From IMG/VR virus record IMGVR_UViG_3300029305_011675: a stretch of DNA of 64,000 bases; one strand, 5' to 3'. Positions 5,597 to 18,513 of the stretch are shown here, piece by piece. Below the pieces are notes generated by a model, which saw only the letters and a list, made by a program, of their open reading frames with translations, did no database searches and was not told the DNA's origin. The stretch is from a virus (lineage: Duplodnaviria > Heunggongvirae > Uroviricota > Caudoviricetes). Position 1 is the stretch's first letter, and every line of letters starts with the position of its first letter. A program made the position numbers and the translations under genes.

Positions 5597-6043
5597 ATGA
5601 GCATTCAAGAAACTGCAAAGCAGAATATGTATGCCGCTATGAAGGCGCACGACAAGCAGAAGAAAGATGCCTATGCAATGCTTTACGACCAACTTAAGAA
5701 GAAAGAAATCGACCTCCGTCACCCACTTACGGACGACGAGGAGATTGCCGTAGTCACAAAGATGGTCAAGCAGTGCAAGGACAGCATTGATTCTGTGCCA
5801 GAAGGCAAAGGTGGAGAATTCATTGAGAAGGTAAAATTCGAAATGGAAATCTATTCACAATTCCTTCCAACTTTGATGACCGAAGATGAAATCGTCGTTG
5901 TCATCAAGGAAACGATGGCAGAGTGTGGCATCGAAACTCTTGATAACAAGTCTCGTGGTTTGCTTATGAAGAACCTTATGCCAAAGGTTAAGGGCAAAGC
6001 AGATGGCAAACTCGTAGCAGACACCGTTAACAAGATGATGTAA
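5597..6043 (+). CDS. yqeY: GatB/YqeY domain-containing protein
   Basis: 148 aa. The pattern MS..E.....AMKA.DK..........LKKKE....H.LTDDE...V..K.VKQ....D......G matches the YqeY family. RBS aaggagg is present. Confidence 0.7.
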   Translation: MSIQETAKQNMYAAMKAHDKQKKDAYAMLYDQLKKKEIDLRHPLTDDEEIAVVTKMVKQCKDSIDSVPEGKGGEFIEKVKFEMEIYSQFLPTLMTEDEIVVVIKETMAECGIETLDNKSRGLLMKNLMPKVKGKADGKLVADTVNKMM

Positions 6044-6044
6044 T

Positions 6045-6135
6045 TGTAAAATAGAAACTTAAACCGAAACATAGAAACTTATTCTGAAACATAGGAAAGT
6101 TCTCTAAAAGTAGGTTTGAAACTTATTCCGAAACA
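6045..6135 (+). repeat. Tn7R-like end: four contiguous ~20-bp putative TnsB-binding repeats (consensus gaaactta-n4-gaaaca)
   Basis: Sites at 6053-6071, 6073-6091, 6093-6110 (degenerate) and 6117-6135, preceded by a terminal 8 bp tgtaaaat. Confidence 0.75.
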
Positions 6136-6164
6136 AATGTAAATAATCATTTAATCTAAAACAA

Positions 6165-6200
6165 AAAATCCCTCTCGTAATGAGAGGGATTTTATTTTTT
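6165..6200 (+). terminator. Rho-independent terminator just inside the transposon end
   Basis: atccctctcgtaatgagagggat + tttatttttt. Confidence 0.75.
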
Positions 6201-6443
6201 AATTATAAAAAACACATTCAATACTTGACTTTTTCAGAAAAAGTTTATATATTCTATATTATTGTTGAAAATTTTACACAAGGTTGGAGAAAGCACTCCG
6301 CACTTTAAAAGCAAATCTGTCATTCTTATTGTATCAAAAAAACATATAAATCAGTCAAAATTTATATTTTCCAGTATGCTTTTCTATAATATAAAACAAA
6401 TATGTGCAATAATTTATACAAAAATTAAGAAGGTGGTGAATCT

Positions 6444-6737
6444 GTGATGCAAATTAAATGTTTTATAAATGACAATTTTCGAACACTCTCTTATCTTTAT
6501 GATATTAAAGGTGAGGATAATCGTGCCCGTATCACACAACAAGAGGTGGCTGACGCTCTTGGAATTAGTCGCTCTACGCTAAACAAAATTATGAATGAAC
6601 TGAAAAAAGAAGGTTATGTCGAACAAGATGGTAACTATATGGGTCGCTATATTGTTACGAATGCAGCCATTTCAGTTATCGAGACATTTAGAAGTATTGA
6701 TAAAAACGATAGAGGAGGCACTTATGACAGAAATTAA
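6444..6737 (+). CDS. Small HTH transcriptional regulator
   Basis: 97 aa. ITQQEVADALGISRSTLNKIMNELKKEGYV is a classic helix-turn-helix. RBS aaggtgg. Overlaps the start of the next gene by 14 nt. Confidence 0.65.
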   Translation: MMQIKCFINDNFRTLSYLYDIKGEDNRARITQQEVADALGISRSTLNKIMNELKKEGYVEQDGNYMGRYIVTNAAISVIETFRSIDKNDRGGTYDRN

Positions 6738-9384
6738 CATAAACAAACTGAAAAATTTCAAGACGATTACTTGTGATGAATACTTGGAAGTATATAAAGA
6801 AGAGATTATACCTGACAGCGAAAAAATATTTGTTAGAGACTTTTTGTTTGCGATTTTAGGTGAAGACAAAATGCCTATGGTAATTCCACAATATCCCTTT
6901 ATTGATAGTGAGGGAAAATCAAGAAGAATAGATTTCGGTATTATCACACCTGAAGGACATAAAATTGCATTCGAAATCAATGGAGAAACCTACCATAAAG
7001 AAGGCATTATACCATCTGCTCAATTTGACGATAATTTGTTTAGGCAAAATGAAATTTTATTTCACGGTTGGATTTTAAGAAGGTATTCCTATGCACAACT
7101 ATTAGACCCATCTTGGAGAAGCCGTGTTGCGAGCGAAATACGACTAACCCTAAAAGTTTATGCACCAGAACTACTTCCACCAACCAAAATTGAACCAAAT
7201 GCAATTCAAGAAGAAGTTCTGGTTGCATTAAAAAATAAACGTGCATTAGGTTGGGGAAAAGGATTAGTTATAATGCCAACAGGTACAGGTAAAACATATT
7301 TATCGGCATTAGACGCTCTTCAATACAATAACAAAAATCCAGATGCAAAAATATTGTTTGTGGTTCATAGATTAGAAATTCTATCTCAATCCAAGGAAGC
7401 ATATAGAGATGTTTGGGGAGATGTAAAAACGGGTTTTTTGGGTGGTGGTACATCCGAGAATTTGCACGATTGCAAAATTCTCTTTGCATCCAAGGACTCC
7501 CTTTGTAAAGACGAAACCTTGCGACAATTTAACCCAAAATCATTCAATTATATAGTTGTTGATGAAGTTCATCATGGTGAAAGTAAAACATATAAAAAAA
7601 TTATAAATTATTTTACACCAGAATTTTTGCTTGGTATAACCGCAACACCTGATAGGAAAGATAAAAAAGATATATTAGAATTGTTTGATTATCATAAGGT
7701 AAGTGAGTATACCCTAAATGATGCCATTGAAAAAGGTTTTTTGGTAAGTTATGAATATCATGGACTAAAAGATAATATTGACTATACAAATATTCGTTGG
7801 AACGGTGTAAAATACGATAGTAAAGATTTGGAGAATCATTTAATCATTAACGAGAGAAATAAAATGATTCTTAATAAATATATTGAACTGTGCAATGGCA
7901 ACAAAACCATTGGTTTTTGCGTATCAATTAAACATGCTCAAAGAATGGCGGACTTTTTCAATTCTCACGGAATTTCTGCTGTTGCTATTGTTTCTTCAGT
8001 AGAAAATAATAAAGAGTTGATTAAGAAATTTAGAAATAATGAGTTCGCTGTTGCTTTTACGGTAGATATGTTTAATGAAGGTGTTGATATTCCGAATGTG
8101 CAGTCGCTATTATTTTTAAGACCCACCGAATCAAAAACTGTATTCCTACAACAAATTGGTCGTGGTCTTCGCCTATCTTCAAATAAAGATAAAATAGTTA
8201 TTCTCGACTTTATTGGTAATTACAAACGTGCTAATTTTGTTCGTCAGTATTTAGCAAAAAATGTCAAAGAAAAAACAAAGCAAGGGTCAAATGCATTTGA
8301 AAAATTCGAATATGAATACAATCCCAAATGTGTTGTCAAATTTGATGACGAGGTTCAGCAAATTCTCGATTATCAGGATGAACAAAATCACAATATTAAC
8401 GAAGATGACTTAATAGATGCATACTTCGACTTAAAAACTAAAATTGGTCGAAAACCAACAATGGAAGATATTAATACCGATGGTAAATATAAAACCAGCA
8501 AATATGCTTCGGTGTTTGGTAGTTGGTTTCAATTCTTAACAAAAATCGGAGAGATAACAGAAAATGGATATCATTATCCACAAGGATTACATATCGGTCA
8601 TATTATGTACATTTTAAAATCTCTGTACGAAAAAGATACTTCTGGATATATGAATGAAAAATTCATTCGTATGAGAGGCGACTTTAGTGATGACAGTAAT
8701 TTAGCCACATTTCAAAGACAAACAAAATATAAATTACAAGGTATGATGGGAATGGGATTAATAACTGATGACAGAAAAAATGGTTTAGATGTTAAGATGC
8801 CAGAATTAACGGAATTAGGCAAACAATTATTTACTATTCTAAAACCCATCATTGATTGTGCTGATTTGTCATTTAAACTCAAATCAAAGGATTACAGTTG
8901 GGAAATGAATGTTGGAGTTTCTATTTTTGTAGAAAACATTAAAACATATCTCAATGATAATGACGAAGCGAGAAAGCAATATCTTAACATTATATTTAAT
9001 TTTGATGCAATCAGACAACTTTTGTGCTTCTTGTATTTTGATAATCGAAAAATGAATATCACAAAATCTGATTGCTATCAATTTTTCATCGAAAGTCTAT
9101 CTGTTAAAAAATATTGTGAAACACAAGGAATTGAGGTTCCGACGTCAGAAGGTGCCAAGCATCGTGTCCCATTTCTTGTTACTTTATTAGAAACGGCTGA
9201 TATCGTCAAAACCGACAGAAGCAACATTTTCATAAACAAAATATTAATCACAGATTTCATGTTTGAAAATCATATTGATGCTTTTACAAAATTATCAGAA
9301 GGAAATCACACTGAAGAGATTAAAGAAACATTTGGCACAGACTTTTTATCTCACATTGAACATATTAAATTGGAGGTACTATAA
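6724..9384 (+). CDS. DUF559-type PD-(D/E)xK nuclease fused to an SF2 DEAD/DEAH helicase; restriction-subunit-like (HsdR-like domain order)
   Basis: The internal ATG has RBS agaggagg. The N-terminal RIDFGIITPEGHKIAFEINGETYH...NEILFHGWILRRY matches DUF559/Vsr-like nucleases. Helicase motif I is MPTGTGKT, motif II VVDEVHH and motif III GITATP. The C-terminal ~400 aa is unassigned. Confidence 0.7.
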   Translation: MTEININKLKNFKTITCDEYLEVYKEEIIPDSEKIFVRDFLFAILGEDKMPMVIPQYPFIDSEGKSRRIDFGIITPEGHKIAFEINGETYHKEGIIPSAQFDDNLFRQNEILFHGWILRRYSYAQLLDPSWRSRVASEIRLTLKVYAPELLPPTKIEPNAIQEEVLVALKNKRALGWGKGLVIMPTGTGKTYLSALDALQYNNKNPDAKILFVVHRLEILSQSKEAYRDVWGDVKTGFLGGGTSENLHDCKILFASKDSLCKDETLRQFNPKSFNYIVVDEVHHGESKTYKKIINYFTPEFLLGITATPDRKDKKDILELFDYHKVSEYTLNDAIEKGFLVSYEYHGLKDNIDYTNIRWNGVKYDSKDLENHLIINERNKMILNKYIELCNGNKTIGFCVSIKHAQRMADFFNSHGISAVAIVSSVENNKELIKKFRNNEFAVAFTVDMFNEGVDIPNVQSLLFLRPTESKTVFLQQIGRGLRLSSNKDKIVILDFIGNYKRANFVRQYLAKNVKEKTKQGSNAFEKFEYEYNPKCVVKFDDEVQQILDYQDEQNHNINEDDLIDAYFDLKTKIGRKPTMEDINTDGKYKTSKYASVFGSWFQFLTKIGEITENGYHYPQGLHIGHIMYILKSLYEKDTSGYMNEKFIRMRGDFSDDSNLATFQRQTKYKLQGMMGMGLITDDRKNGLDVKMPELTELGKQLFTILKPIIDCADLSFKLKSKDYSWEMNVGVSIFVENIKTYLNDNDEARKQYLNIIFNFDAIRQLLCFLYFDNRKMNITKSDCYQFFIESLSVKKYCETQGIEVPTSEGAKHRVPFLVTLLETADIVKTDRSNIFINKILITDFMFENHIDAFTKLSEGNHTEEIKETFGTDFLSHIEHIKLEVL

Positions 9385-9386
9385 AT

Positions 9387-10337
9387 ATGGCTATACATAA
9401 TAAATCTCACAACAATTCTGCACTTATGTCTTTAAATAAAATGAATAAGGACAACATCAAGCATAAGACATCAAAGGACTTTGAGATGCCCGAAAAAAGC
9501 ATTCAACTATTAATGATTCAAGATTGCTTGACTGCATTAAAAGAACTACCAGATAAATCAATCCAATTAATTTGCATTGACCCTCCTTATAATTTGGATT
9601 TGGCAGATTGGGATACATATGATAATTATATGAGTTGGTGTGCTGAATGGTTAAATGAATGTTGGAGAGTTTTGAAAGACGAAGGCAGTTTAGTTGTTTT
9701 TGGTGGCACTCAATTTAGAGATGAAAGAAGCGGCGATTTAACTGAAATTATCTATCATTGTCGCCACAATACTAAATGGAAGTTAGTCAACACAATTGTT
9801 TGGTATTACAAAAATGGAATGTCTGCCCATAGATATTTTGCAAACCGTCATGAGGAAATTATTTGGTTCGTAAAAACCGATAAATATTACTTTGATTTAG
9901 ATTCTGTTAGAGTAAAATATTCAGAAGAAGATTTAAAAAATGCCTTAAAAGATAAGAGACTGAATCCTGAAAATGTTAAAAAAGGCAAAAATCCAACAAA
10001 TGTATGGGAAATAGGTAGATTAAATGGTAATTCGTTAGAAAGAGTTGGACATCCAACCCAAAAACCTTTAGCAGTCATCAGGAGATTAGTTAAAGCATTA
10101 TCATATCCTGGGTCAACCGTCTTGGATTTCTTTGCAGGTAGCGGAACAACAGGTAGAGTGTGTATTGAAGAAGGTAGACACTGTATTCTTATAGATAAAG
10201 GCGAAACAACTACCGATTATTTTAAAAAACATATTGAAAAAATGGAAAAAACAACACTTGCAAAACCCCACCAGTCTGTTGAAACAATTGAAGAATTTTT
10301 CAATTGTGTCGAAGAAGAAACAAATAAAAACAATTAA
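9387..10337 (+). CDS. Beta-class N6-adenine/N4-cytosine DNA methyltransferase
   Basis: Motif IV LICIDPPYN lies upstream of motif I VLDFFAGSGTTG. RBS ggagg. Starts 2 nt after the upstream stop. Confidence 0.8.
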   Translation: MAIHNKSHNNSALMSLNKMNKDNIKHKTSKDFEMPEKSIQLLMIQDCLTALKELPDKSIQLICIDPPYNLDLADWDTYDNYMSWCAEWLNECWRVLKDEGSLVVFGGTQFRDERSGDLTEIIYHCRHNTKWKLVNTIVWYYKNGMSAHRYFANRHEEIIWFVKTDKYYFDLDSVRVKYSEEDLKNALKDKRLNPENVKKGKNPTNVWEIGRLNGNSLERVGHPTQKPLAVIRRLVKALSYPGSTVLDFFAGSGTTGRVCIEEGRHCILIDKGETTTDYFKKHIEKMEKTTLAKPHQSVETIEEFFNCVEEETNKNN

Positions 10338-10661
10338 CACCTTAACTTATTACTGCGAATTTTAAGTTAAATACAAACAAAAATATGGAGTCCGCAATAT
10401 CGGACTCTAAACCAAATATAAAAAAGAAGCCCGCTACTGCGAATAGCGGACTTCCGTATAACAACACTAAAATTAACATTTGTATGACTACCAATCTAAC
10501 AAAAGTGTTTTTTAATGCTGCTTTCTTATTATAGCATTTTCTTATCTAAATGTCAACTCATTTTTGTTAGAAATTCAGTATTCTTATACTTTTGTTAATT
10601 TTGACTAATCTCGTTCCTGCTCGGAACACAAAAATATTAAAATATGATAGGAGTAGATATT

Positions 10662-12812
10662 ATGGATAATATAATGCTAACCGTTGGTAATGTTATTATA
10701 GATGAGCATAGTGGCAAACAATATCGAGTTGTTGCAGTTGTAAACAATGATATTACTTTATGCGAGATGAATACTACGAAGTTTTTACTCTCGTTAATGA
10801 ATAAACAAACCTTGTTCGCACTTGTGGCAACAGGTGAATTAATAATCAAAGTCGAACCACCCATCGTTTTCAACAAGGATGACTTACCAGAGGGTTTTCA
10901 GAAAAAATTCACAATAAGACAACAGATAATGAATGAGGTCCTCAAGGAATATGGACCATCTTATATTGAACTAAACGGTAAAAAACGAGGCAGGACAGTC
11001 AAGGATATAATGAGTAAATATAACTTGGCAAGATGTTCTTTCTGGAGAATATGTACTCAATATTTTCAAAGTGGTCTTCAAGATTATTCGTTAGTTGATT
11101 CGAGATATTTTGGTGCAAATACTGGCAAGACATATAATTATGAGACCAAAACTGGTCGCCCACCAGAATACTCTATGGCATCGGGAATTATTATCACCGA
11201 TGAAATTATCAAGCATTTTGAAGAAGCATTGAAAGATTATAAGTCTGGAAGACACAAATCCATCAAGGATGCTTTTGACAAAATGAATTTGTTGCATTTT
11301 ACAAAAACAGAAATAATTAACGGTCAACCCAGTATTGTTTTATTGCCCATATCAGAAAGACCAACACTCGACCAATTTAGATACTATTGCAACAAACATC
11401 TTACAAACCAAGAAAAAGACTTAATAAAAACATCTGCACTCGAACAAAAGAATAACAAAAGACTTCTTGTAAGCGATTCACTCAATGGTGTAAATGGACC
11501 TGGTGATTTGGTAGAAATCGATGCTTGCGAAGCAGATATATCGTTGGTTTCTGTTATTGACTCATCAAAAACTATCGGCAGACCGATAGTGTACTTTATG
11601 GTTGATGTATACTCTCGCATTATCTTGGCAGTGTCTGTTGCTTTTGATAATAACTCTATGCTTGGTTTATCAAACTTATTTCTAAACCTTGCAGATGATA
11701 AACAGAAGTATTGTGAGAGATACGGAATTAGTTATGAAAACAAAGATATTTGGCCATCAAACATTATTCCCAATCGTGTTCGTGTTGACAAAGGTGCTGA
11801 ATTTAGAAGCAAAGAGTTTGAGAGAATCTGCAATGAACTTGGTATTGAAAGAAATATCGTATTGCCAGGGTGTGGTTCTCTCAAAGGTATTGTAGAGCAG
11901 TCATTTAGACAATTACATCTCAAACAAAATCATCATCTTGAAAATCATGGTCTCATTACCCAAAGACACGATTCCAAACATCATCAAGAGGCGATGTTGA
12001 ATATTGAAGAATATACTAAAATGGTTATTGGTTTTGTTCTAACTCACAACCAACAATGCTTAACAAATTTCCCACTCACAAAAGATATGATTTTGAAGAA
12101 GGTTCAACCCATTCCTGCTTTGTTGTGGAAATATGGCATAAACAACGGTTTCACACCGAGACCAATCCCTTCGCTGCAACAATATCTATTCAATCTTATG
12201 ACACCTATCAATGCCAAAGTAAGCAGAAAAGGTATCAGTCATAAGGAATTATATTATCTAAACACAGAAGATAAAAAACTTGCTCGTGAGATGTTTGATG
12301 CTGGCAACAAAAGAAAAGATTTTGAAGCAAGAATGGATATGAGAGATGTTGGTTCGATTTATTATATCAGAGATAATAAGTTAATGGTCGCCAGACTTAA
12401 CCCGCTAATTCAAGGGAATGCGGAATATGCTGGTATGACGATGAAGGAATACGAAGATTTCCGCAAGGGTAAAAAAGAACTTCTCGCAGCAGGCAAGGTT
12501 AATAACGAAGAATTGTCTGCATTCAATTATGCGATGAACAATGCTATTGTTGAAGAAGCGACAAAACCAATGTTACCTTCTGCAAAAGATATGAGACCTG
12601 CTCGTGAGATTGAAAAGCAGGCAAAATCTAAATCTAATAAAATCAGCAAAAGATTAGAACAACCTAAACTCGAAGCACCAAAAACGGAAGATGTTTTGGT
12701 AGAAGAGTTTATTGAAAAAATAACCGAATGTCCTCCTGCAGAGGAAGTCCCAGTAAAGAAAAATAAGTTAAACACATATAGCAATTGGGACGAAGCATTG
12801 GAAGATTGGTAA
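10662..12812 (+). CDS. tnsB: Tn7 TnsB-like / Mu-type DDE transposase
   Basis: About 717 aa. The core matches TnsB/TniA integrases, e.g. IVYFMVDVYSRIILAVSVAFDNNS and RVRVDKGAEFRS. RBS taggag. Confidence 0.75.
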   Translation: MDNIMLTVGNVIIDEHSGKQYRVVAVVNNDITLCEMNTTKFLLSLMNKQTLFALVATGELIIKVEPPIVFNKDDLPEGFQKKFTIRQQIMNEVLKEYGPSYIELNGKKRGRTVKDIMSKYNLARCSFWRICTQYFQSGLQDYSLVDSRYFGANTGKTYNYETKTGRPPEYSMASGIIITDEIIKHFEEALKDYKSGRHKSIKDAFDKMNLLHFTKTEIINGQPSIVLLPISERPTLDQFRYYCNKHLTNQEKDLIKTSALEQKNNKRLLVSDSLNGVNGPGDLVEIDACEADISLVSVIDSSKTIGRPIVYFMVDVYSRIILAVSVAFDNNSMLGLSNLFLNLADDKQKYCERYGISYENKDIWPSNIIPNRVRVDKGAEFRSKEFERICNELGIERNIVLPGCGSLKGIVEQSFRQLHLKQNHHLENHGLITQRHDSKHHQEAMLNIEEYTKMVIGFVLTHNQQCLTNFPLTKDMILKKVQPIPALLWKYGINNGFTPRPIPSLQQYLFNLMTPINAKVSRKGISHKELYYLNTEDKKLAREMFDAGNKRKDFEARMDMRDVGSIYYIRDNKLMVARLNPLIQGNAEYAGMTMKEYEDFRKGKKELLAAGKVNNEELSAFNYAMNNAIVEEATKPMLPSAKDMRPAREIEKQAKSKSNKISKRLEQPKLEAPKTEDVLVEEFIEKITECPPAEEVPVKKNKLNTYSNWDEALEDW

Positions 12813-12825
12813 GGAGGTATTCGAT

Positions 12826-14433
12826 ATGGATATAAAATATAATTATTACGAATGTGAAAAATTCGAGACACAATATGAAGATTATGATTTTGAAGAAAAC
12901 AAAATCGTAAATGCCAGATATGTTAAGGCACTTGTTGAATGTGATATCGGTAACCCATACATAGAGGCATTGCCACATCCGAGACACGAAGATGATGTAA
13001 GAGATGCATACACAAAACATCTTTTAACATACGACTACGATAAGGTCAAAAATATGACCAAATTAGAAAAGATGTTGCAAGTTAGCACTTTAAGGCAGAT
13101 AAGATTTCCTCTTACATTCCACAAGAATTTGGAATTTTCATTCTATAATGCTTTAATTACATCTTATAGGTCAAGGAAAATCAAACCCATAAACGATAAA
13201 CCAATTGAATATATTTCAAACGATATAGAGACAGAAACCAACTGTGTTTTATATGGTAATTCTGCCGATTCTACAAATGCAGGATTCTCTCTCATAGGTT
13301 ATTCTGGTTGTGGCAAAAGTTCCGCAATCCAAACATTGCTTTCGCATTATCCACAAACCATTATACATCGTGTAGATGAGTTTACACAATATGTCCAGAT
13401 TGTTTATTTGGTTGTAAACTGTGTACCCAATAGTAATTTCTCTGCATTATATGAAGGCATTGGCGATGCTGTTGATAAGGCGCTCGGCAATACTCAACCT
13501 GTTTATGCAAAAGAGATTGCAAAAACAACCACACTTGGCAGAAAAATGGAGAAGGTTCGTGAGTTAATAGAAAGATTTGGTATCGGAATGATTATCTTTG
13601 ATGAGATACAACTCATAGATTTTGATAGAACAAAAGAAAGTTCTTTTGAATCTTTAATGACTTTATCTAACAGAACAAAAGTCGCTATCGCTGTTGTAGG
13701 TACAGAAGATGCCAGAGACAAAATGTTTAAGGAATTAAGAACCACAAGAAGAATTGGAACAGTAATCAACGGTAATATGTATTGTGAGAACAAAATGTTT
13801 TTTACATTCCTTGTCACTCAACTATTTAACTATCAATGGTTTGATGAACCAATTGATGTAACAGAGGAACTTGTAGATGCCCTCTACGATGTCACCAAAG
13901 GCATTGTGGACCAACTTATAGGAATATACTCCTGTATGCATTACGACTATTTAGAGCGAAAGAAACGCCCCGTAATCGATGCGAAATATGTCTATGATAT
14001 AGCACAAAGATATTACCCAGGAATTCAGAATGTTCTTGCGGATTTGGAATCAATTGAAGCGGCAAGAAAACTTATGGGCATCAGACAAGATGCAGAAGTT
14101 AGAGTCGCTTCTATCATTGATAATGCAAAGCAGGAAAAAGAAGCAGAAGACTTGTTACAAAAACAAAATAAAGCAGTCGATAAAATGCTAATGTTGAAAA
14201 ATATTGTAGCAAATATCACTGCCCTATATGATGAATATTCTCTTTCTCAAATTGAAAAGGCATTTAATTTAGTTATAAAACAGACCAAAGACAATCCTAA
14301 ATCCGAAAGAGAAATGAGTCGTTTGGTTCTTGATAAACTTACTCACAGAAGAAATACCAAATCTGCAGATAAAAAGAAAAAGTCGAGTATCCCAGAAATG
14401 GATACAACGACTATGAGAGATTTTATTGGATAA
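12826..14433 (+). CDS. tnsC: TnsC-like AAA+ ATPase (transposition regulator)
   Basis: Walker A is GYSGCGKSS and Walker B is GMIIFDEIQ. It sits immediately downstream of tnsB, with RBS aaggagg. Confidence 0.75.
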   Translation: MDIKYNYYECEKFETQYEDYDFEENKIVNARYVKALVECDIGNPYIEALPHPRHEDDVRDAYTKHLLTYDYDKVKNMTKLEKMLQVSTLRQIRFPLTFHKNLEFSFYNALITSYRSRKIKPINDKPIEYISNDIETETNCVLYGNSADSTNAGFSLIGYSGCGKSSAIQTLLSHYPQTIIHRVDEFTQYVQIVYLVVNCVPNSNFSALYEGIGDAVDKALGNTQPVYAKEIAKTTTLGRKMEKVRELIERFGIGMIIFDEIQLIDFDRTKESSFESLMTLSNRTKVAIAVVGTEDARDKMFKELRTTRRIGTVINGNMYCENKMFFTFLVTQLFNYQWFDEPIDVTEELVDALYDVTKGIVDQLIGIYSCMHYDYLERKKRPVIDAKYVYDIAQRYYPGIQNVLADLESIEAARKLMGIRQDAEVRVASIIDNAKQEKEAEDLLQKQNKAVDKMLMLKNIVANITALYDEYSLSQIEKAFNLVIKQTKDNPKSEREMSRLVLDKLTHRRNTKSADKKKKSSIPEMDTTTMRDFIG

Positions 14434-14448
14434 TAGGAGGAATAAAGT

Positions 14449-16575
14449 ATGAATAAATTCATTCCTATGATTGTTGCCCCTTACCCAGACGAATTCTTAT
14501 ATTCTTGGGTAATGAGATTAGCAAACGCCAATAAACTTTCCGTTCCTCTGTTTTTTGAAACCTATTTCGGTAAAGAATACTTTAGCAAGTTTTTACTTCC
14601 CATAGATATTAGAAAAGGTTTTGGTTCATTCTATAATTTTCTTAATTGTACAACCCCTGTTTCAGAATTATATTTAAGTTTATCTACTCTACAATTTGAA
14701 TTATTGTCTTATCCACCCAAGATGCAGACAAAGTTCATAAATCCTATTTTCAGAAAAGAAAATAACATATATACCATAAAAGAATATTTAATGACAGATT
14801 TCCGTATGTGTAAAGAATGTATGAAGGAAGATAAGGAATTATTCGGAGAAACTTACATTCATCGTTCTCATCAGTTAAATGGTGTTTGTGTTTGTCATAA
14901 ACATCACACCCCATTATTTATTCAAAAAAGGAATTCGAAATACATTTACAAAGATGAAACTTTGGAACAAATGGAGTTAGCAGACACTTTTGAAAAAGAG
15001 TGCGAATATGCTGATTATACCCATTTTCTGTTAGAAAACAATTTTCAATCTAATTCTAATGATTTAATGAAAATCATAATCGATAAATTAGGGATATTAG
15101 AATCAAATAAAAAGGAATTGGTCATAAAAATAAACGAAATACTCAAAAATGGCAAAACTTATTCCAAAGAAAGTTTGTGGTCTAAAAACGATTGTAACTT
15201 TCCAATAAAAGATTTTATTAAAGTATTGATGTATGCATACCCAAATCCAAAAGACATATTAGTAAAAGCGAAGAAATTTTCTCTAATCATTGAACAAAAA
15301 TGTGATAAGTGCGGTAAGACTTTTTACACAACAGAACAAGCACTTAAAGATGGATGGGGTTGTACATTTTGTGATGATAAACTTAAAGAAATAGATTTGA
15401 TAAAGAGATTGATTAAAATTGGTGGAAACGGAGAATATGTTTTCAAAGGTTTCCTACCAACTAAAACTAAAAACAGCATACGTCTATTCCATAAACCTTG
15501 TGGCGAAGAACACCTTACCAGTTTAAATAACTTCGTTTTTAATCACAAAAGATGCAAGTGTGGTATAAAAATGCAAAGAAAAGAAGCAGAAAAAGAGATG
15601 AAAAAACACCCACAATTCAAGTTGGTTGAATTTAACGGTGCTACATTTCCTGCAAAGTTCCGTCACAATGATTGTGGTAGAGAGTTTGAATATAAATCAT
15701 TCAGATGGTTTTTAAAATGGCCTAAATGTCCTCATTGTCAAGGATTTACAAAAGAAAATCTTGAACAAGAAATAAGGGATGTTGTTGGGGATGAATATAC
15801 GGTTTGTGATATTGGTTCTATTCGTAAAGATAAAGTCACCATTAGGCACAACATTTGTGGATGCGCACACGAATATGTGCCATACAATTTTCTTATTGGT
15901 GCCAGATGTCCCAAATGCTACAATCAAGTGTCGTTAAGGGAATTGAAAATAATGTTAAAAGAATATTCTGATGATAGATATGAAATTGTAGGAAAAAGAA
16001 AAGAAAAATGTATTATATATGACAAGGAAACAGACGAAACCATTGAGTTGACAAATAGACATATATTGCAAGAGATTAAAAGACCAACACCATCTTCCTT
16101 ATTACCTGTAAAAAATCGCAAATCCATTCAAAGTCCTTTGTCAACTTGGGATTTTTGGTATCAACTTTGTATTGAATACAAAAACGAGTTTGGACATCTG
16201 TGTCCAGTGATGAATGAAACATACAAAGGATATAATCTATATAGTTGGTTGATTGTAACCAGACAATATTACAGAAAAGGACAACTTTCACAAGAAAAGA
16301 TACAAGCACTTAAAGATATAGATTTTGTATTCGATACTGCATTTTATAAGTGGGAACAAAGGTTTAATGAATATAAAGTATTTGTTAATGAAACAGGAAA
16401 TTATTTTCCTTCAGTCAAAGAAATACACAATGGAAATAAAGTGGGTCAGTGGTTTTTAAGGCAACGAAAAGCGAAAAACAGAGGTAGTTTAAAACCAAAG
16501 TATGAAAAAATATTATTGGAATATTATTCAGATTTTTTTAAAAAACATCCAAGATACAAAAACAATACCATTTAA
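14449..16575 (+). CDS. tniQ: TniQ/TnsD-like target-selector protein
   Basis: The N-terminus MIVAPYPDEFLYSWVMRLANAN is the TniQ signature. Multiple CxxC/CxxH zinc-finger clusters. 708 aa, closer in size to TnsD. Confidence 0.7.
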   Translation: MNKFIPMIVAPYPDEFLYSWVMRLANANKLSVPLFFETYFGKEYFSKFLLPIDIRKGFGSFYNFLNCTTPVSELYLSLSTLQFELLSYPPKMQTKFINPIFRKENNIYTIKEYLMTDFRMCKECMKEDKELFGETYIHRSHQLNGVCVCHKHHTPLFIQKRNSKYIYKDETLEQMELADTFEKECEYADYTHFLLENNFQSNSNDLMKIIIDKLGILESNKKELVIKINEILKNGKTYSKESLWSKNDCNFPIKDFIKVLMYAYPNPKDILVKAKKFSLIIEQKCDKCGKTFYTTEQALKDGWGCTFCDDKLKEIDLIKRLIKIGGNGEYVFKGFLPTKTKNSIRLFHKPCGEEHLTSLNNFVFNHKRCKCGIKMQRKEAEKEMKKHPQFKLVEFNGATFPAKFRHNDCGREFEYKSFRWFLKWPKCPHCQGFTKENLEQEIRDVVGDEYTVCDIGSIRKDKVTIRHNICGCAHEYVPYNFLIGARCPKCYNQVSLRELKIMLKEYSDDRYEIVGKRKEKCIIYDKETDETIELTNRHILQEIKRPTPSSLLPVKNRKSIQSPLSTWDFWYQLCIEYKNEFGHLCPVMNETYKGYNLYSWLIVTRQYYRKGQLSQEKIQALKDIDFVFDTAFYKWEQRFNEYKVFVNETGNYFPSVKEIHNGNKVGQWFLRQRKAKNRGSLKPKYEKILLEYYSDFFKKHPRYKNNTI

Positions 16576-16658
16576 TTAAGAGTTTGGCGATAAAAAGAAA
16601 CTCGTTATTTTGATAAAAAAACAGGGGTGCCTTTTTTAATTGCTTTAATTCAATTCTA

Positions 16659-16687
16659 TTGACAGAATGGCATATTTATGTTATAAT
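16659..16687 (+). promoter_or_regulatory. Sigma-A promoter TTGACA-17-TGTTATAAT for the cargo ORFs
   Basis: ttgacagaatggcatatttatgttataat, followed by a ~120-nt leader that contains a 15-bp long-range helix (16716-16731 pairing with 16778-16792). Confidence 0.6.
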
Positions 16688-16809
16688 AAAATTAGAATTC
16701 CGCAAGTTTTAACTACTTATTCTTTTGAAGATTAACCTGAAGTAGAGGTTATAACTGGATTTCCACACACACGAATCTCTTCAAAAAATAAGAAACGAGG
16801 TTAAAAAAT

Positions 16810-17247
16810 ATGTTATTTGAATATGATTATTGCGGAATTATGTTTAGAAATCCTTTTGCATATGATAATAAACAAAATTATCATTGCGCGACAATGCTGT
16901 TAAATGCATTGTCATCGTATATTACCACATATCGTCCAAAGGAAGAACACACAAGCGAAAGTATTTACAAATTGCTTGTCGCCAATTCAGAACAAAGACA
17001 CATTGGTGATTCTCCTTTTGCTATCAATGGAAAAGGTAGTCTTTTAGATGCAATTTTTGAAGAACTCCGAATGAAAGTTCCCTGTTGTATCGAATTAGAA
17101 TATTATAAAATATTTAAAGCATTTCCATTGAAACAACAACTTTCAGTTATTGCCACCTTGATGGCAGAAAATTTTGGTTTAAGAGAAAAGGCAATCGAGA
17201 ATTTTCTTAAAAAATCAAAAGACCCGTTTGTAACAAACAAAGAATAA
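16810..17247 (+). CDS. Hypothetical protein (transposon cargo)
   Basis: 145 aa. RBS gaaacgagg. No recognisable motif. Confidence 0.5.
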   Translation: MLFEYDYCGIMFRNPFAYDNKQNYHCATMLLNALSSYITTYRPKEEHTSESIYKLLVANSEQRHIGDSPFAINGKGSLLDAIFEELRMKVPCCIELEYYKIFKAFPLKQQLSVIATLMAENFGLREKAIENFLKKSKDPFVTNKE

Positions 17248-17308
17248 AATTAATGGCATACGATTGGTTGTGTGTGCAATCGTATGCTATTTTTTAGGAG
17301 AATTAGTT

Positions 17309-18241
17309 ATGAGAGAAAATTTAAAACAACTTATAGGCGAAGAAATTAGTGGTGTAGCAAAGTGTGTCAGAAATGGACATCGTTGCCTATTGAGAGATAT
17401 CGTAGTAGACGACTCTTGTTCTTTTGACCCAGACTTATATTTAGCAATAGAACAACACTTGTGGACAGATTCTAATGTTATTGAGAAAAACAATATAAAA
17501 CGATATTCTTATTTTCGTTTCGCTGGCTCTGTATATGAGTATAAAAGAGAAAACGACACAACAGATTATTCTATCGAATTAAAAGAAGTTGAACCGATTG
17601 ATACTTTTAAGTATTTAAAAAGCAGAATTCAGCAATGCTATTGTAGACATGTGTGTTTATTTTTTGAACACTGCTATTATAACTGCTGTGCACCACAATC
17701 AGAAAAAGATAATTTTGTTATTCCTGTATTAGAAAAGATGTTTTTAGAAGAAGCAGTCAACGATTTTGCAGAAGAATATGAATTTTCACCAAAGGATTTT
17801 CTAAAAGAAATCAGGAACAAAACTCTATTTAAAATTAGTGATGCACATATTTATCTTGGTATGAATAAGGCAGATTTTATCAAAAGATATAAGTCCAACA
17901 TTATTGAGGGCAATGAGTTTGGATATAAAATGAAACCTATTGAAGTAGATAAAATCTTCTTAACTCCAGTTATTCATTTTATGAAAAACGGGATGTGCGA
18001 TGCAATTGCATTTGAGACTAATCAAGATAATTTAAATACTGCAATTCAATATATAAATAAAAAGTATAACACAAATGTTACACTTTTTAATCACAAAGAA
18101 TTGATTGACTTATTCAAAGCAGAGATGGAATTTGGAGATATTATTTTTGGTTATTCAAAAGCACAAGAAAATCATCCTGCTTCCATTGTTATGAGTTTGT
18201 CAACACCAATATCGACATATTTCTCGGTTGGCTTACAATAA
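17309..18241 (+). CDS. Hypothetical protein (transposon cargo)
   Basis: The internal ATG has RBS taggag. 310 aa, Cys-containing, no recognisable motif. Confidence 0.5.
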   Translation: MRENLKQLIGEEISGVAKCVRNGHRCLLRDIVVDDSCSFDPDLYLAIEQHLWTDSNVIEKNNIKRYSYFRFAGSVYEYKRENDTTDYSIELKEVEPIDTFKYLKSRIQQCYCRHVCLFFEHCYYNCCAPQSEKDNFVIPVLEKMFLEEAVNDFAEEYEFSPKDFLKEIRNKTLFKISDAHIYLGMNKADFIKRYKSNIIEGNEFGYKMKPIEVDKIFLTPVIHFMKNGMCDAIAFETNQDNLNTAIQYINKKYNTNVTLFNHKELIDLFKAEMEFGDIIFGYSKAQENHPASIVMSLSTPISTYFSVGLQ

Positions 18242-18303
18242 AATATTTTTATATAAACGGAAACTTATAAAAATAAAAAACAATTTATAACACTATTAAG
18301 TTT

Positions 18304-18439
18304 TGTTTCAAAACAAGTTTCACAACATTGTAACTATCAAAGACATTATATTGCTTTGTTTTATAATAAGTTTCTAATAAATCACGAAGAAAACTATGAA
18401 AAAGCATAGTTCTGTTTCAAAATAAGTTTATAATCAACA
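18304..18439 (-). repeat. Tn7L-like end: three spaced inverted copies of the ~20-bp repeat plus the terminal 8 bp
   Basis: tgtttcaaaacaagtttcac (18304-18323), tgttttataataagtttct (18358-18376) and tgtttcaaaataagtttat (18413-18431). Each is the reverse complement of gaaactt...gaaaca. The element ends ...atcaaca at 18439. Confidence 0.75.
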
Positions 18440-18480
18440 GTAATTGTTAAATGACAATTTAATTTGAAACTAAAATTAAG

Positions 18481-18513
18481 AAACCCCGCATAACGATGCG
18501 GGGTTTCTTGTCG
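18481..18513 (+). terminator. Rho-independent terminator (native yqeY terminator displaced by the insertion)
   Basis: aaaccccgcataacgatgcggggtttcttg. Confidence 0.75.

What the first reader, a model, noticed from the sequence alone, without database searches (positions are those of the whole stretch)
6444..10337. tnsA is absent; its position holds an HTH regulator, a DUF559-nuclease/SF2-helicase fusion and a beta-class methyltransferase
No TnsA-like ORF exists between the R-like end and tnsB. That interval instead encodes a small HTH protein, an 886-aa protein and a 316-aa DPPY-type amino-methyltransferase. The 886-aa protein has an N-terminal DUF559/Vsr-like PD-(D/E)xK domain (RIDFGI...IAFEINGETYH...FHGWILRRY) followed by a DEAD/DEAH SF2 helicase core (MPTGTGKT, VVDEVHH, GITATP) and then ~400 aa of unassigned sequence. 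A nuclease placed N-terminal to the motor is the HsdR-like order, not the Type III Res order, yet there is no HsdS and the MTase is beta-class rather than gamma-class. This does not fit a canonical RM type. It could be an unusual RM or defence cargo carried next to the transposition genes, or, more speculatively, a nuclease that substitutes for TnsA in a TnsA-less Tn7-like element. A TnsB+TnsC+TniQ-only element with no resolvase is in itself noteworthy.
Basis: partly seen in the sequence, partly recalled or inferred. Interest (0 to 1): 0.8.

Follow-up and report, generated by a model that had tools for sequence, protein, structure and literature searches.

The report
Restriction-modification cargo in tnsA-less Tn7-like transposon
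The three genes are a regulator that belongs to the transposon itself plus a two-gene restriction-modification cassette carried as cargo; the cassette is an uncharacterised ATP-driven type found in many bacteria without any transposon, so it does not replace the missing TnsA nuclease.

Summary
Window 6045-18439 is a 12.4-kb Tn7-like element with TGT/ACA ends, three TnsB-site repeats per end and a 5-bp duplication (GTAAT). It sits at the stop codon of yqeY and encodes TnsB, TnsC and TniQ. No TnsA is found anywhere in the 64 kb.

- **Cargo, not a TnsA substitute.** The 886-aa protein and the 316-aa methyltransferase form a co-evolving pair. The pair recurs without transposition genes in a prophage, in defence islands and in Bacteroidota and CPR genomes.
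- **Domains of the 886-aa protein.** It has a Vsr-type nuclease, a SauUSI-like motor and tandem winged-helix domains resembling FokI's DNA-recognition domain.
- **The methyltransferase.** It is a full-length M.RsrI homologue (E = 9e-104).
- **The HTH gene.** This gene belongs to the transposon backbone, not to the cassette.
- **Loss of tnsA is a clade trait.** About 50 sister elements (TnsB 59% identity or less) keep tnsA abutting tnsB. All seven elements with TnsB at 65% or more lack it. The six whose slot is visible each hold a different methyltransferase-containing system there.

tnsA-less, resolvase-less Tn7-like branches and RM cargo are both already documented. The cassette type and the fixed cargo slot are moderately new.

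The parts
6040..6044 (.). Left copy of the 5-bp target-site duplication GTAAT; it overlaps the yqeY stop codon (TAA 6041-6043)
   Evidence: identical GTAAT at 18440-18444
6045..6135 (+). Right (R) end of the Tn7-like element: terminal TGT and three ~19-bp TnsB-site repeats (6053-6071, 6073-6091, 6117-6135)
   Evidence: 7 repeat matches in the window against 0.05 expected; inverted copies at the other end
6165..6193 (+). Hairpin terminator just inside the R end; a hairpin occupies the same position in at least four relatives
   Evidence: 13-bp stem plus T run; one search shows equivalent hairpins in L018, L081a, L081b; in L020
6225..6253 (+). Promoter-like site (TTGACT-17-TATATT) overlapping a short palindrome; likely promoter of the HTH/cargo operon
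   Evidence: a TACTTGAC motif is conserved at the same place in L018, L020, L081a and L081b
6444..6737 (+). MarR-like winged-helix regulator (97 aa); a backbone gene of the tnsA-less lineage. The usual stop after ...DK(K/R) is lost here, which adds 9 residues and overlaps the next gene
   Evidence: HTH_24 7e-11, MarR_2 2e-9; 41-80% identical 88-aa homologues at the same position in L018, L022, L080, L081a/b and none in non-transposon cassettes
6724..7173 (+). Restriction subunit, residues 1-150: Vsr-type PD-(D/E)xK nuclease domain (MTES_1575 family)
7186..8238 (+). Restriction subunit, residues ~155-505: SF2 translocase core with motifs I, II (DEVH), III and VI
   Evidence: ResIII, Helicase_C; SauUSI 7clg 2e-73 over residues 95-611; PADLOC mREase_IV 6e-77
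8398..9384 (+). Restriction subunit, residues 559-886: HNH_repeat (559-609) plus tandem winged-helix domains; predicted DNA target-recognition module
9387..10337 (+). Beta-class N6-adenine DNA methyltransferase; full-length homologue of M.RsrI
   Evidence: N6_N4_Mtase 9e-62; 1eg2 M.RsrI 9e-104, residues 5-303; MTase_II 2e-106
10342..10370 (.). 29-bp palindrome TTAACTTA-N13-TAAGTTAA marking the right edge of the cargo slot, 4 nt after the MTase stop
   Evidence: exact in L018, L019, L020 and L081, immediately after their different cargo genes
10420..10556 (-). Candidate ~100-nt small RNA gene in the conserved spacer: perfect TTGACA-17-TGnTATAAT promoter (10556-10528), two hairpins and an intrinsic terminator (10455-10425)
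   Evidence: conserved, with compensatory changes in the terminator stem, across relatives
10644..12812 (+). tnsB (722 aa), DDE transposase
   Evidence: rve, weak; homologues carry PF27135; name PF27135 as HTH_TnsB plus rve; (26-29% identity to TnsB of tnsA-bearing Tn7-family elements)
12826..14433 (+). tnsC (535 aa), AAA+ regulator
   Evidence: AAA_22 7e-12, TniB 2e-10
14449..16575 (+). tniQ/tnsD-like target selector (708 aa) with C-terminal HA domains
   Evidence: TniQ 9e-16, HA 3e-21
16810..18241 (+). Two ORFs of unknown function (145 and 325 aa) between tniQ and the L end; not found in related elements
   Evidence: no family; no homologue in any related locus
18304..18439 (-). Left (L) end: three inverted TnsB-site repeats (18304-18322, 18357-18375, 18413-18431) and terminal ...ACA
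18440..18444 (.). Right copy of the target-site duplication GTAAT

Best explanation
The interval holds two things of different origin.

(1) A backbone gene. Gene 6444-6737 is a MarR-like winged-helix regulator that belongs to a lineage of Tn7-like transposons that lost tnsA. It follows the R end, a terminator and a promoter. It probably controls the operon that begins with it (inferred).

(2) Cargo. Genes 6724-10337 are a self-contained restriction-modification cassette.
- The M.RsrI-like beta-class methyltransferase acts alone and N6-methylates adenine in a short site. By homology the site may be GAATTC (inferred, not shown).
- The 886-aa enzyme reads the unmethylated site with its C-terminal tandem winged-helix module. 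It then uses its SauUSI-like SF2 motor to translocate on ATP and cuts with its N-terminal Vsr-type nuclease.
- In effect it is a single-chain, ATP-dependent restriction enzyme with an independent Type II-style methyltransferase. The domains are shown; the activities are inferred.

The cassette fills a fixed cargo slot, from the stop codon of the HTH gene to a 29-bp palindrome about 300 nt before tnsB. The five relatives in which the slot is visible hold other methyltransferase-containing systems there. The cassette takes no part in transposition.

Without TnsA, the element should move by TnsB-only 3'-end cleavage and strand transfer. That is replicative transposition through a cointegrate, resolved by host homologous recombination or a resolvase in trans. 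This is inferred from Tn7 TnsA catalytic mutants and type V-K elements.
For: Cassette independent of transposition: an HTH + nuclease-helicase + N6_N4 MTase trio occurs next to Gabija-like genes (L001), after a phage lysin (L003-L006), in a chromosome (L007), in Pedobacter (L082) and in a Doudnabacteria contig (L083). None has tnsB/C/Q nearby.

R and M co-evolve: R/M identities to the window pair are 74/85, 65/78, 61/69, 50/57 and 51/63%.

Domains. The winged-helix module is portable and is also fused to NgoFVII-type PLD restriction nucleases. MTase versus M.RsrI: 9e-104.

HTH is backbone: homologues occur only in tnsA-less transposons (41-80% identity), each followed 12-14 nt later by a different cargo gene. 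In non-transposon cassettes where an upstream regulator is seen (five of six contexts), it is an unrelated HTH family (HTH_3, HTH_26, HTH_31, HTH_17).

Variable cargo in the same slot: Type I systems (L018, L020); a 687-aa N6_Mtase plus HsdS (L022); a 628-aa D12 MTase plus an HNH protein (L080); an Eco57I-type MTase with three other proteins (L081).

tnsA loss is clade-wide and single: about 50 loci with TnsB at 59% identity or less have a 214-225-aa TnsA abutting tnsB. All 7 elements at 65% or more lack it, and they form one clade in a TnsB tree.
Against: No activity was measured. The methylated site, ATP dependence and cleavage are all inferred from homology and predicted folds.

The closest solved relative of the motor, SauUSI, cuts methylated DNA, which is the opposite polarity. 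GAATTC is not depleted in the window (33 observed against 22 expected).

The winged-helix module is fairly conserved across the family. That fits a shared specificity but does not prove it is the specificity determinant.

PADLOC's REBASE-derived models match only the helicase part, and REBASE itself could not be consulted, so the family may already be listed there as a putative enzyme.

That every tnsA-less relative with a visible slot carries a nuclease-containing system exactly where tnsA was is an unexplained regularity.
Confidence: 0.8

Rival explanations
1. The N-terminal PD-(D/E)xK nuclease of the 886-aa protein replaces TnsA and cuts the 5' ends of the element, restoring cut-and-paste transposition.
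Against: The same protein, at 49-74% identity over its full length, is encoded with its MTase in six contexts with no transposition genes. The other tnsA-less elements lack it and carry unrelated enzymes, which could not all perform a precise end cleavage. hhalign against the sister-clade TnsA gives probability 0.1%. Nine structures match better than TnsA, led by homing-endonuclease, Vsr and RAP-domain proteins.
Confidence: 0.03
2. The 886-aa protein is a modification-dependent (Type IV, SauUSI-like) enzyme, and the neighbouring methyltransferase is not its protective partner. The MTase might be an orphan or epigenetic enzyme, or a decoy.
Against: The MTase gene abuts or overlaps the nuclease-helicase gene in all six non-transposon contexts across three phyla and co-evolves with it. 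That is the signature of a protective pair. The SauUSI similarity stops at residue 611, before SauUSI's methyl-reading domain; Pfam finds no DUF3427 in the protein.
Confidence: 0.08
3. The element is an immobile relic: a cargo insertion or deletion destroyed tnsA and the rest is decaying.
For: tnsA is missing, no resolvase is present, and the HTH gene has lost its normal stop codon.
Against: tnsB, tnsC and tniQ are intact, and both ends and the 5-bp duplication are perfect. The tnsA-less state is shared by a clade that has diverged to 65% TnsB identity. The clade has acquired different TniQ proteins (38-93% identity), different flanking genes and a tandem pair (L081), which implies continued movement after the loss.
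Confidence: 0.06
4. The lineage still uses cut-and-paste, with TnsA supplied in trans by a co-resident tnsA-bearing sister element.
For: Sister elements with tnsA are common in the same gut and rumen Lachnospiraceae-type assemblies. TnsC keeps a conserved C-terminal tail in both clades.
Against: No tnsA lies in the 64 kb or in the 20-kb neighbourhoods of the relatives. TnsB and TnsC are only 50-59% identical to the sister clade's, so cross-recognition is doubtful. The conserved TnsC tail could equally be the TnsB-binding hook.
Confidence: 0.1

Closest known systems
SauUSI (Type IV ATP-dependent restriction enzyme, PDB 7clg)
   Same: Single chain ordered nuclease, SF2 motor, recognition domain. 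The motor and the region after it are homologous (2e-73, residues 95-611).
   Different: SauUSI has a PLD nuclease and a DUF3427 methyl-cytosine reader and no partner methyltransferase. Here the nuclease is Vsr-type, the C-terminal module is tandem winged helix, and a methyltransferase gene always follows.
CglI / NgoAVII ATP-dependent restriction-modification systems
   Same: An independent Type II-style methyltransferase plus an NTP-dependent restriction activity that uses a DEAD-type motor. The C-terminal module found here is also fused to NgoFVII-type PLD nuclease domains in other proteins.
   Different: In CglI/NgoAVII the nuclease-plus-recognition protein (PLD + B3) and the helicase are separate proteins, and the MTase is m5C. 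Here there is one polypeptide, a Vsr nuclease and a beta-class m6A-type MTase.
Type I HsdR and Type ISP enzymes (EcoAI family; LlaGI/LlaBIII)
   Same: The nuclease lies N-terminal to an SF2 translocase. The NCBIfam EcoAI R-subunit model matches at 4e-39, well below its cutoff.
   Different: There is no HsdS and no gamma-class HsdM, and the MTase is not fused. Recognition appears to sit in the R protein itself.
RsrI restriction-modification system (M.RsrI, PDB 1eg2)
   Same: The methyltransferase is a full-length homologue (9e-104) with the same beta-class motif order.
   Different: By established knowledge, M.RsrI's partner is a small EcoRI-like Type IIP nuclease. Here the partner is an 886-aa nuclease-helicase.
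tnsA-less Tn7-like elements (type V-K CRISPR-associated transposons; Tn5053/Tn402; the branches noted by Benler et al. 2021)
   Same: TnsB + TnsC + TniQ without TnsA; replicative transposition is expected (PMC8649781).
   Different: This lineage is nested among tnsA-bearing elements that mostly insert after nrdD. It has no resolvase and no CRISPR effector, uses a long TnsD-like TniQ, and has a regulated cargo slot on the R side where tnsA used to be.

Membership tests
Tn7-like transposon | DDE transposase TnsB with an AAA+ TnsC and a TniQ/TnsD target selector in one operon | tested here: met
Tn7-like transposon | TGT...ACA termini, several TnsB-site repeats at each end, 5-bp target duplication, insertion just after a conserved gene | tested here: met
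   GTAAT duplication at the yqeY stop codon.
Tn7-like transposon (heteromeric, cut-and-paste type) | TnsA endonuclease (PF08722) encoded next to tnsB | tested here: not met
   no match in the 64 kb to the sister-clade TnsA by tblastn or HMM; no TnsA domain in any element protein.
Tn5053/Tn402-type replicative elements | Serine or tyrosine resolvase and a res site within the element | tested here: not met
   no Pfam resolvase or recombinase hit in any of the eight element proteins. A res site was not searched for.
Type I restriction-modification | HsdS specificity subunit and gamma-class HsdM (N6_Mtase) alongside HsdR | tested here: not met
   no Methylase_S or N6_Mtase; the MTase is N6_N4_Mtase (beta class).
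Type III restriction-modification | Res with the helicase N-terminal and the nuclease C-terminal; a large Mod subunit that carries the recognition domain | tested here: not met
   The nuclease occupies residues 1-150, ahead of the motor. The MTase is 316 aa and M.RsrI-like. PADLOC REase_III matches only at 1.6e-5.
Type ISP restriction-modification | Nuclease, helicase, methyltransferase and recognition domain in one polypeptide | tested here: not met
   The MTase is a separate gene.
Type IV SauUSI family | PLD nuclease, SF2 motor, DUF3427 methyl-cytosine reader, no cognate methyltransferase | tested here: not met
   Only the motor matches. The nuclease is Vsr-type, the C-terminus is winged helix, and an MTase is always adjacent.
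Type II beta-class N6-adenine methyltransferase (M.RsrI-like) | DPPY motif ahead of the FxGxG AdoMet motif; full-length similarity to a characterised member | tested here: met
   The methylated sequence itself could not be tested.
Restriction-modification system in general | The nuclease cuts unmodified DNA and the partner methylation protects | not testable with these tools
   Only conserved adjacency and co-evolution of R and M are shown.

The most novel reading that the evidence does not exclude
Two things are not excluded.

(a) The Vsr-nuclease / SauUSI-like motor / winged-helix protein with its M.RsrI-like methyltransferase may be an uncharacterised class of ATP-dependent restriction-modification system, in which the restriction enzyme reads the site itself. 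It is present across several phyla.

(b) The tnsA-less lineage may have turned the vacated tnsA position into a dedicated, regulated cargo slot. The slot would comprise promoter, winged-helix regulator, exact junction at the regulator's stop codon, a 29-bp palindrome and a conserved antisense small RNA before tnsB. Whole restriction systems would be exchanged through it by an unknown mechanism.
Probability: 0.4. Interest if true: 0.6.

Novelty: new variant of a known kind. Interest (0 to 1): 0.45.

Why it matters
It removes an attractive but wrong idea, that a helicase-nuclease stands in for TnsA. Two testable points remain.

First, a widespread restriction enzyme architecture combines a SauUSI-type motor with a Vsr nuclease, its own DNA reader and a Type II-style methyltransferase. 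It is annotated only as 'DEAD/DEAH box helicase', and PADLOC's restriction models match only its helicase part. Characterising it would fill a gap between Type II, Type IV and the CglI-type ATP-dependent enzymes.

Second, a gut and rumen Bacillota lineage of Tn7-like elements lost tnsA once and kept spreading. It carries a different restriction system in the same sharply bounded slot each time. That makes it a natural system for two questions: how TnsA-less elements with a TnsD-like selector complete transposition without a resolvase, and how defence cargo is swapped.

Tried and rejected
- **Genome scan with TnsB alone** found no relative. An alignment of homologues was needed.
- **Rfam on the whole element** gave only terminator-like leader hits below threshold.
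- **Plasmid and phage collections** hold no full-length homologue of the 886-aa protein, only SauUSI-like DUF3427 proteins. They hold no close TnsB relative either.
- **Literature searches** for MTES_1575, HNH_repeat, and Vsr plus helicase plus methyltransferase found no description of this system. The held library is open-access only.
- **Link between TniQ's HA domains and the helicase's HNH_repeat**: rejected, because tnsA-bearing sister elements have the same TniQ-HA architecture without the helicase.
- **orf145 or orf325 as a hidden TnsA or resolvase**: they have no family match and no homologue in any related element.
- **Loss of a TnsA-binding tail in TnsC**: the C-terminal motif is conserved in both clades, so this is uninformative.
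- **Known script error**: the tnsA flags for L012, L016 and L059 are a script artefact. L012 and L059 have too little upstream DNA, and L016 had no hit. All three are treated as unknown.

Full report
**1. What is there**

Window 6045-18439 is a 12,395-bp Tn7-like element.
- It starts with TGT and ends with ACA.
- It has three ~19-bp repeats inside each end, in inverted orientation. Seven matches were found in the window against 0.05 expected by chance.
- It is flanked by a perfect 5-bp duplication, GTAAT, at 6040-6044 and 18440-18444.
- The duplication overlaps the stop codon of a yqeY gene (Pfam YqeY 1e-30).

All genes read left to right:

| Coordinates | Product |
|---|---|
| 6444-6737 | 97-aa winged-helix protein |
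| 6724-9384 | 886-aa protein |
| 9387-10337 | 316-aa methyltransferase |
| 10644-12812 | TnsB |
| 12826-14433 | TnsC (AAA_22, TniB) |
| 14449-16575 | 708-aa TniQ with C-terminal HA domains |
| 16810-18241 | two unassigned ORFs (145 and 325 aa) |

**2. Is tnsA really absent?**

Yes. Relatives were fetched with an alignment of TnsB homologues: 9 loci from genomes and 54 from metagenomes. More were found by exact look-up of closer homologues.

In elements whose TnsB is 59% identical or less to this one, a 214-225-aa ORF abuts or overlaps the start of tnsB. It matches Pfam Tn7_TnsA-like_N (E = 2e-9 to 6e-13). Those TnsA proteins were used as tblastn queries and as an HMM against every stop-to-stop frame of the window. 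Nothing scored better than E = 0.3. No Pfam resolvase or recombinase hit was found in any of the eight element proteins.

**3. The loss is a property of a clade**

About 50 loci with enough upstream DNA and TnsB at 59% identity or less carry tnsA. Most are inserted after nrdD.

All seven distinct elements at 65% or more lack it: the window, L018/L019, L020/L021, L022/L023, L024, L080 and L081. In a neighbour-joining tree of TnsB these seven form one clade nested among tnsA-bearing elements. Three flags in that call (L012, L016, L059) are a script artefact and are treated as unknown.

Within the clade:
- TnsB has diverged to 65% identity.
- TniQ ranges from 93% down to 38% identity.
- Flanking genes differ between elements.
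- One locus holds two elements in tandem.

The lineage therefore kept moving after losing tnsA. The relic explanation is unlikely.

**4. The backbone of the tnsA-less lineage**

Relatives show the same order of parts, though not every part was seen in every element (the R end of L022 and L080 was not located, and L020 lacks the HTH gene):
1. the R end with three repeats;
2. a hairpin terminator;
3. a promoter-like TTGAC site overlapping a small palindrome;
4. about 200 nt of leader;
5. an 88-aa MarR-like winged-helix gene;
6. a ribosome-binding site, with the first cargo gene 12-14 nt after the stop codon;
7. the cargo;
8. a conserved ~300-nt spacer that opens with the palindrome TTAACTTA-N13-TAAGTTAA;
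9. tnsB, tnsC, tniQ and the L end.

In L018 and L081 the L end follows tniQ within about 200 bp, so all cargo in those elements lies on the R side. tnsA-bearing sisters carry cargo after tniQ instead.

The window's HTH protein is 41-80% identical to the HTH proteins of L018, L022, L080 and both elements of L081. It has no homologue in any non-transposon locus. In the window its usual stop after ...DK(K/R) is gone. This adds nine residues and makes it overlap the next gene, so the cargo junction lies exactly there. L020 lacks the HTH gene.

**5. The cargo differs every time**

In the six elements whose slot is visible, the slot holds:

| Element | Cargo in the slot |
|---|---|
| window | nuclease-helicase plus beta-class MTase |
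| L018 | Type I system: HsdM, HsdS, EcoEI-type HsdR, plus a 183-aa protein |
| L020 | another Type I system plus a T5orf172 protein |
| L022 | 687-aa N6_Mtase plus an HsdS-like protein |
| L080 | 628-aa D12-class MTase plus a 478-aa HNH protein |
| L081 | 586-aa Eco57I-type MTase with three other proteins |

Each contains a DNA methyltransferase. L024's contig starts too close to tnsB to show its cargo. Restriction-modification is the commonest defence cargo of Tn7-like elements, found in 947 transposons (PMC8649781).

**6. The cassette exists on its own**

The 886-aa protein has very many full-length homologues, about 900 aa long. The 120 best hits alone are all 49% identical or more, and their source names include Pedobacter, Christiangramia, Cyclobacteriaceae and Doudnabacteria.

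Six contexts were read: beside Gabija-like OLD/UvrD genes, after a phage holin and lysin, in a chromosome, and in Pedobacter and Doudnabacteria contigs.
- In all six the next gene is a 306-316-aa N6_N4 methyltransferase.
- In five a small HTH gene of an unrelated family (HTH_3, HTH_26, HTH_31, HTH_17) precedes it.
- None has tnsB, tnsC or tniQ nearby.

R and M identities to the window pair fall together: 74/85, 65/78, 61/69, 50/57 and 51/63%. This is a co-evolving functional pair.

**7. Anatomy of the 886-aa protein**

*Residues 1-150.*
- All 15 diverse members match the Vsr-type family PF18741 MTES_1575, below its gathering score (best 8.8e-7). Four match DUF559 weakly. MTES_1575 was defined as a novel Vsr-type nuclease (PMC3710099).
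- D70, E84 and H91 are invariant.
- Profile comparison with the sister clade's TnsA gives probability 0.1%.

*Residues ~155-505.* This is an SF2 core. Its best solved relative is SauUSI (2e-73 over residues 95-611), and its best PADLOC model is Type IV (6e-77, helicase part only).

*Residues 559-609.* These match HNH_repeat.

*Residues 545-886.*
- The region models confidently (pLDDT 87) as helical and winged-helix units.
- An exhaustive search with this region finds it in full-length family members. It also finds it at the C-terminus of 470-550-aa proteins whose N-terminus is an NgoFVII-type PLD restriction nuclease.
- A module that is swapped between restriction nucleases is most simply a DNA-recognition module.

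**8. The methyltransferase**

It aligns end to end with M.RsrI (PDB 1eg2; E = 9e-104, residues 5-303). It has DPPY ahead of FxGxG, which is beta-class order. By established knowledge M.RsrI methylates GAATTC. The same specificity here is only a guess, and GAATTC is not depleted in the window.

**9. How it most likely works**

*Shown:*
- the domain content of the proteins;
- the conserved R-M adjacency and co-evolution;
- the independence of the cassette from transposition genes;
- the backbone nature of the HTH gene;
- the clade-wide loss of tnsA.

*Inferred:*
- The methyltransferase acts alone, like a Type II enzyme.
- The large protein binds the unmethylated site through its winged-helix module.
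- It then translocates on ATP like SauUSI and cuts with the Vsr-type nuclease.
- The HTH protein represses its own promoter and so sets expression of whatever cargo sits behind it.
- The transposon moves by TnsB-only nicking and strand transfer into the site chosen by TniQ. This forms a cointegrate that host recombination resolves. The same route is known for Tn7 TnsA catalytic mutants and is argued for tnsA-less branches by Benler et al. (PMC8649781).

**10. Comparison with known systems**

The cassette fails the defining features of Type I, Type III, Type ISP and SauUSI-type Type IV systems (see the membership table). Functionally it is nearest to the CglI/NgoAVII kind, which also pairs a Type II-like methyltransferase with an ATP-dependent nuclease. 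Here, though, the parts are in one chain with different nuclease and recognition domains.

I found no description of it in the searchable literature and could not consult REBASE.

The transposon is a Tn7-like element that fails only the TnsA criterion. tnsA-less, resolvase-less branches have already been reported.

**11. Verdict**

The RM-cargo reading is supported and the TnsA-substitute reading is not.

The finding is less surprising than first rated, because both RM cargo and tnsA loss are documented. Two moderately novel points remain: an uncharacterised ATP-dependent RM architecture, and a lineage with a fixed, regulated R-side slot through which different restriction systems have passed.

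Noticed in passing
window 10420-10556 (minus strand): The conserved spacer before tnsB holds a perfect minus-strand promoter (TTGACA-17-TGnTATAAT). It is followed by a ~100-nt region that folds into a long hairpin plus an intrinsic terminator (MFE -36.5 kcal/mol). The terminator stem shows compensatory changes across relatives. No plus-strand promoter match lies in 10338-10643, so this may be an antisense small RNA acting on a read-through tnsB leader.
   Followed up: partly
window 10342-10370; L018 9711-9740; L019 6260-6289; L020 9737-9767; L081 9689-9717: A 29-bp palindrome, TTAACTTA-N13-TAAGTTAA, sits immediately after the last cargo gene in elements with quite different cargo. It could be an operator for the winged-helix protein or a recombination boundary.
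   Followed up: partly
whole window: GATC does not occur once in 64,000 bases (about 206 expected from base composition). AAGCTT occurs once (22 expected). This suggests strong long-term restriction pressure at these sites in the host.
   Followed up: no
window 18445-18510: Directly after the L end comes TGTTAAATGACAATTT..., which resembles the start of an R end of a related element (compare L081a). A strong hairpin terminator follows. This is either the displaced native yqeY terminator or the remnant of an older element at the same site.
   Followed up: no
L081 3130-16130 and 16135 onward: Two different tnsA-less elements sit in tandem and share the 5-bp sequence GCGGC at the junction. The second starts with its own R end, terminator, promoter and HTH gene, followed by an EcoRI_methylase-type fragment.
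   Followed up: partly
window 14449-16575 and relatives (L018, L020, L022, L078-L081): TniQ proteins of both the tnsA-less and the tnsA-bearing clades carry C-terminal 'helicase associated' (HA, PF03457) domains, presumably as the DNA-reading part of a TnsD-like selector. TniQ identity varies far more than TnsB identity, which fits switching of attachment sites.
   Followed up: no
window 16810-18241: Two ORFs (145 aa and a Cys-rich 325 aa) lie between tniQ and the L end. They have no family match and no homologue in any related element; their function is unknown.
   Followed up: partly
proteins P0251, P0260, P0264, P0269, P0274, P0284, P0285, P0361: A set of 470-550-aa proteins combines an NgoFVII-type PLD nuclease domain with the same winged-helix module as the 886-aa protein. 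They are probably a related, motor-less or split restriction enzyme family.
   Followed up: partly
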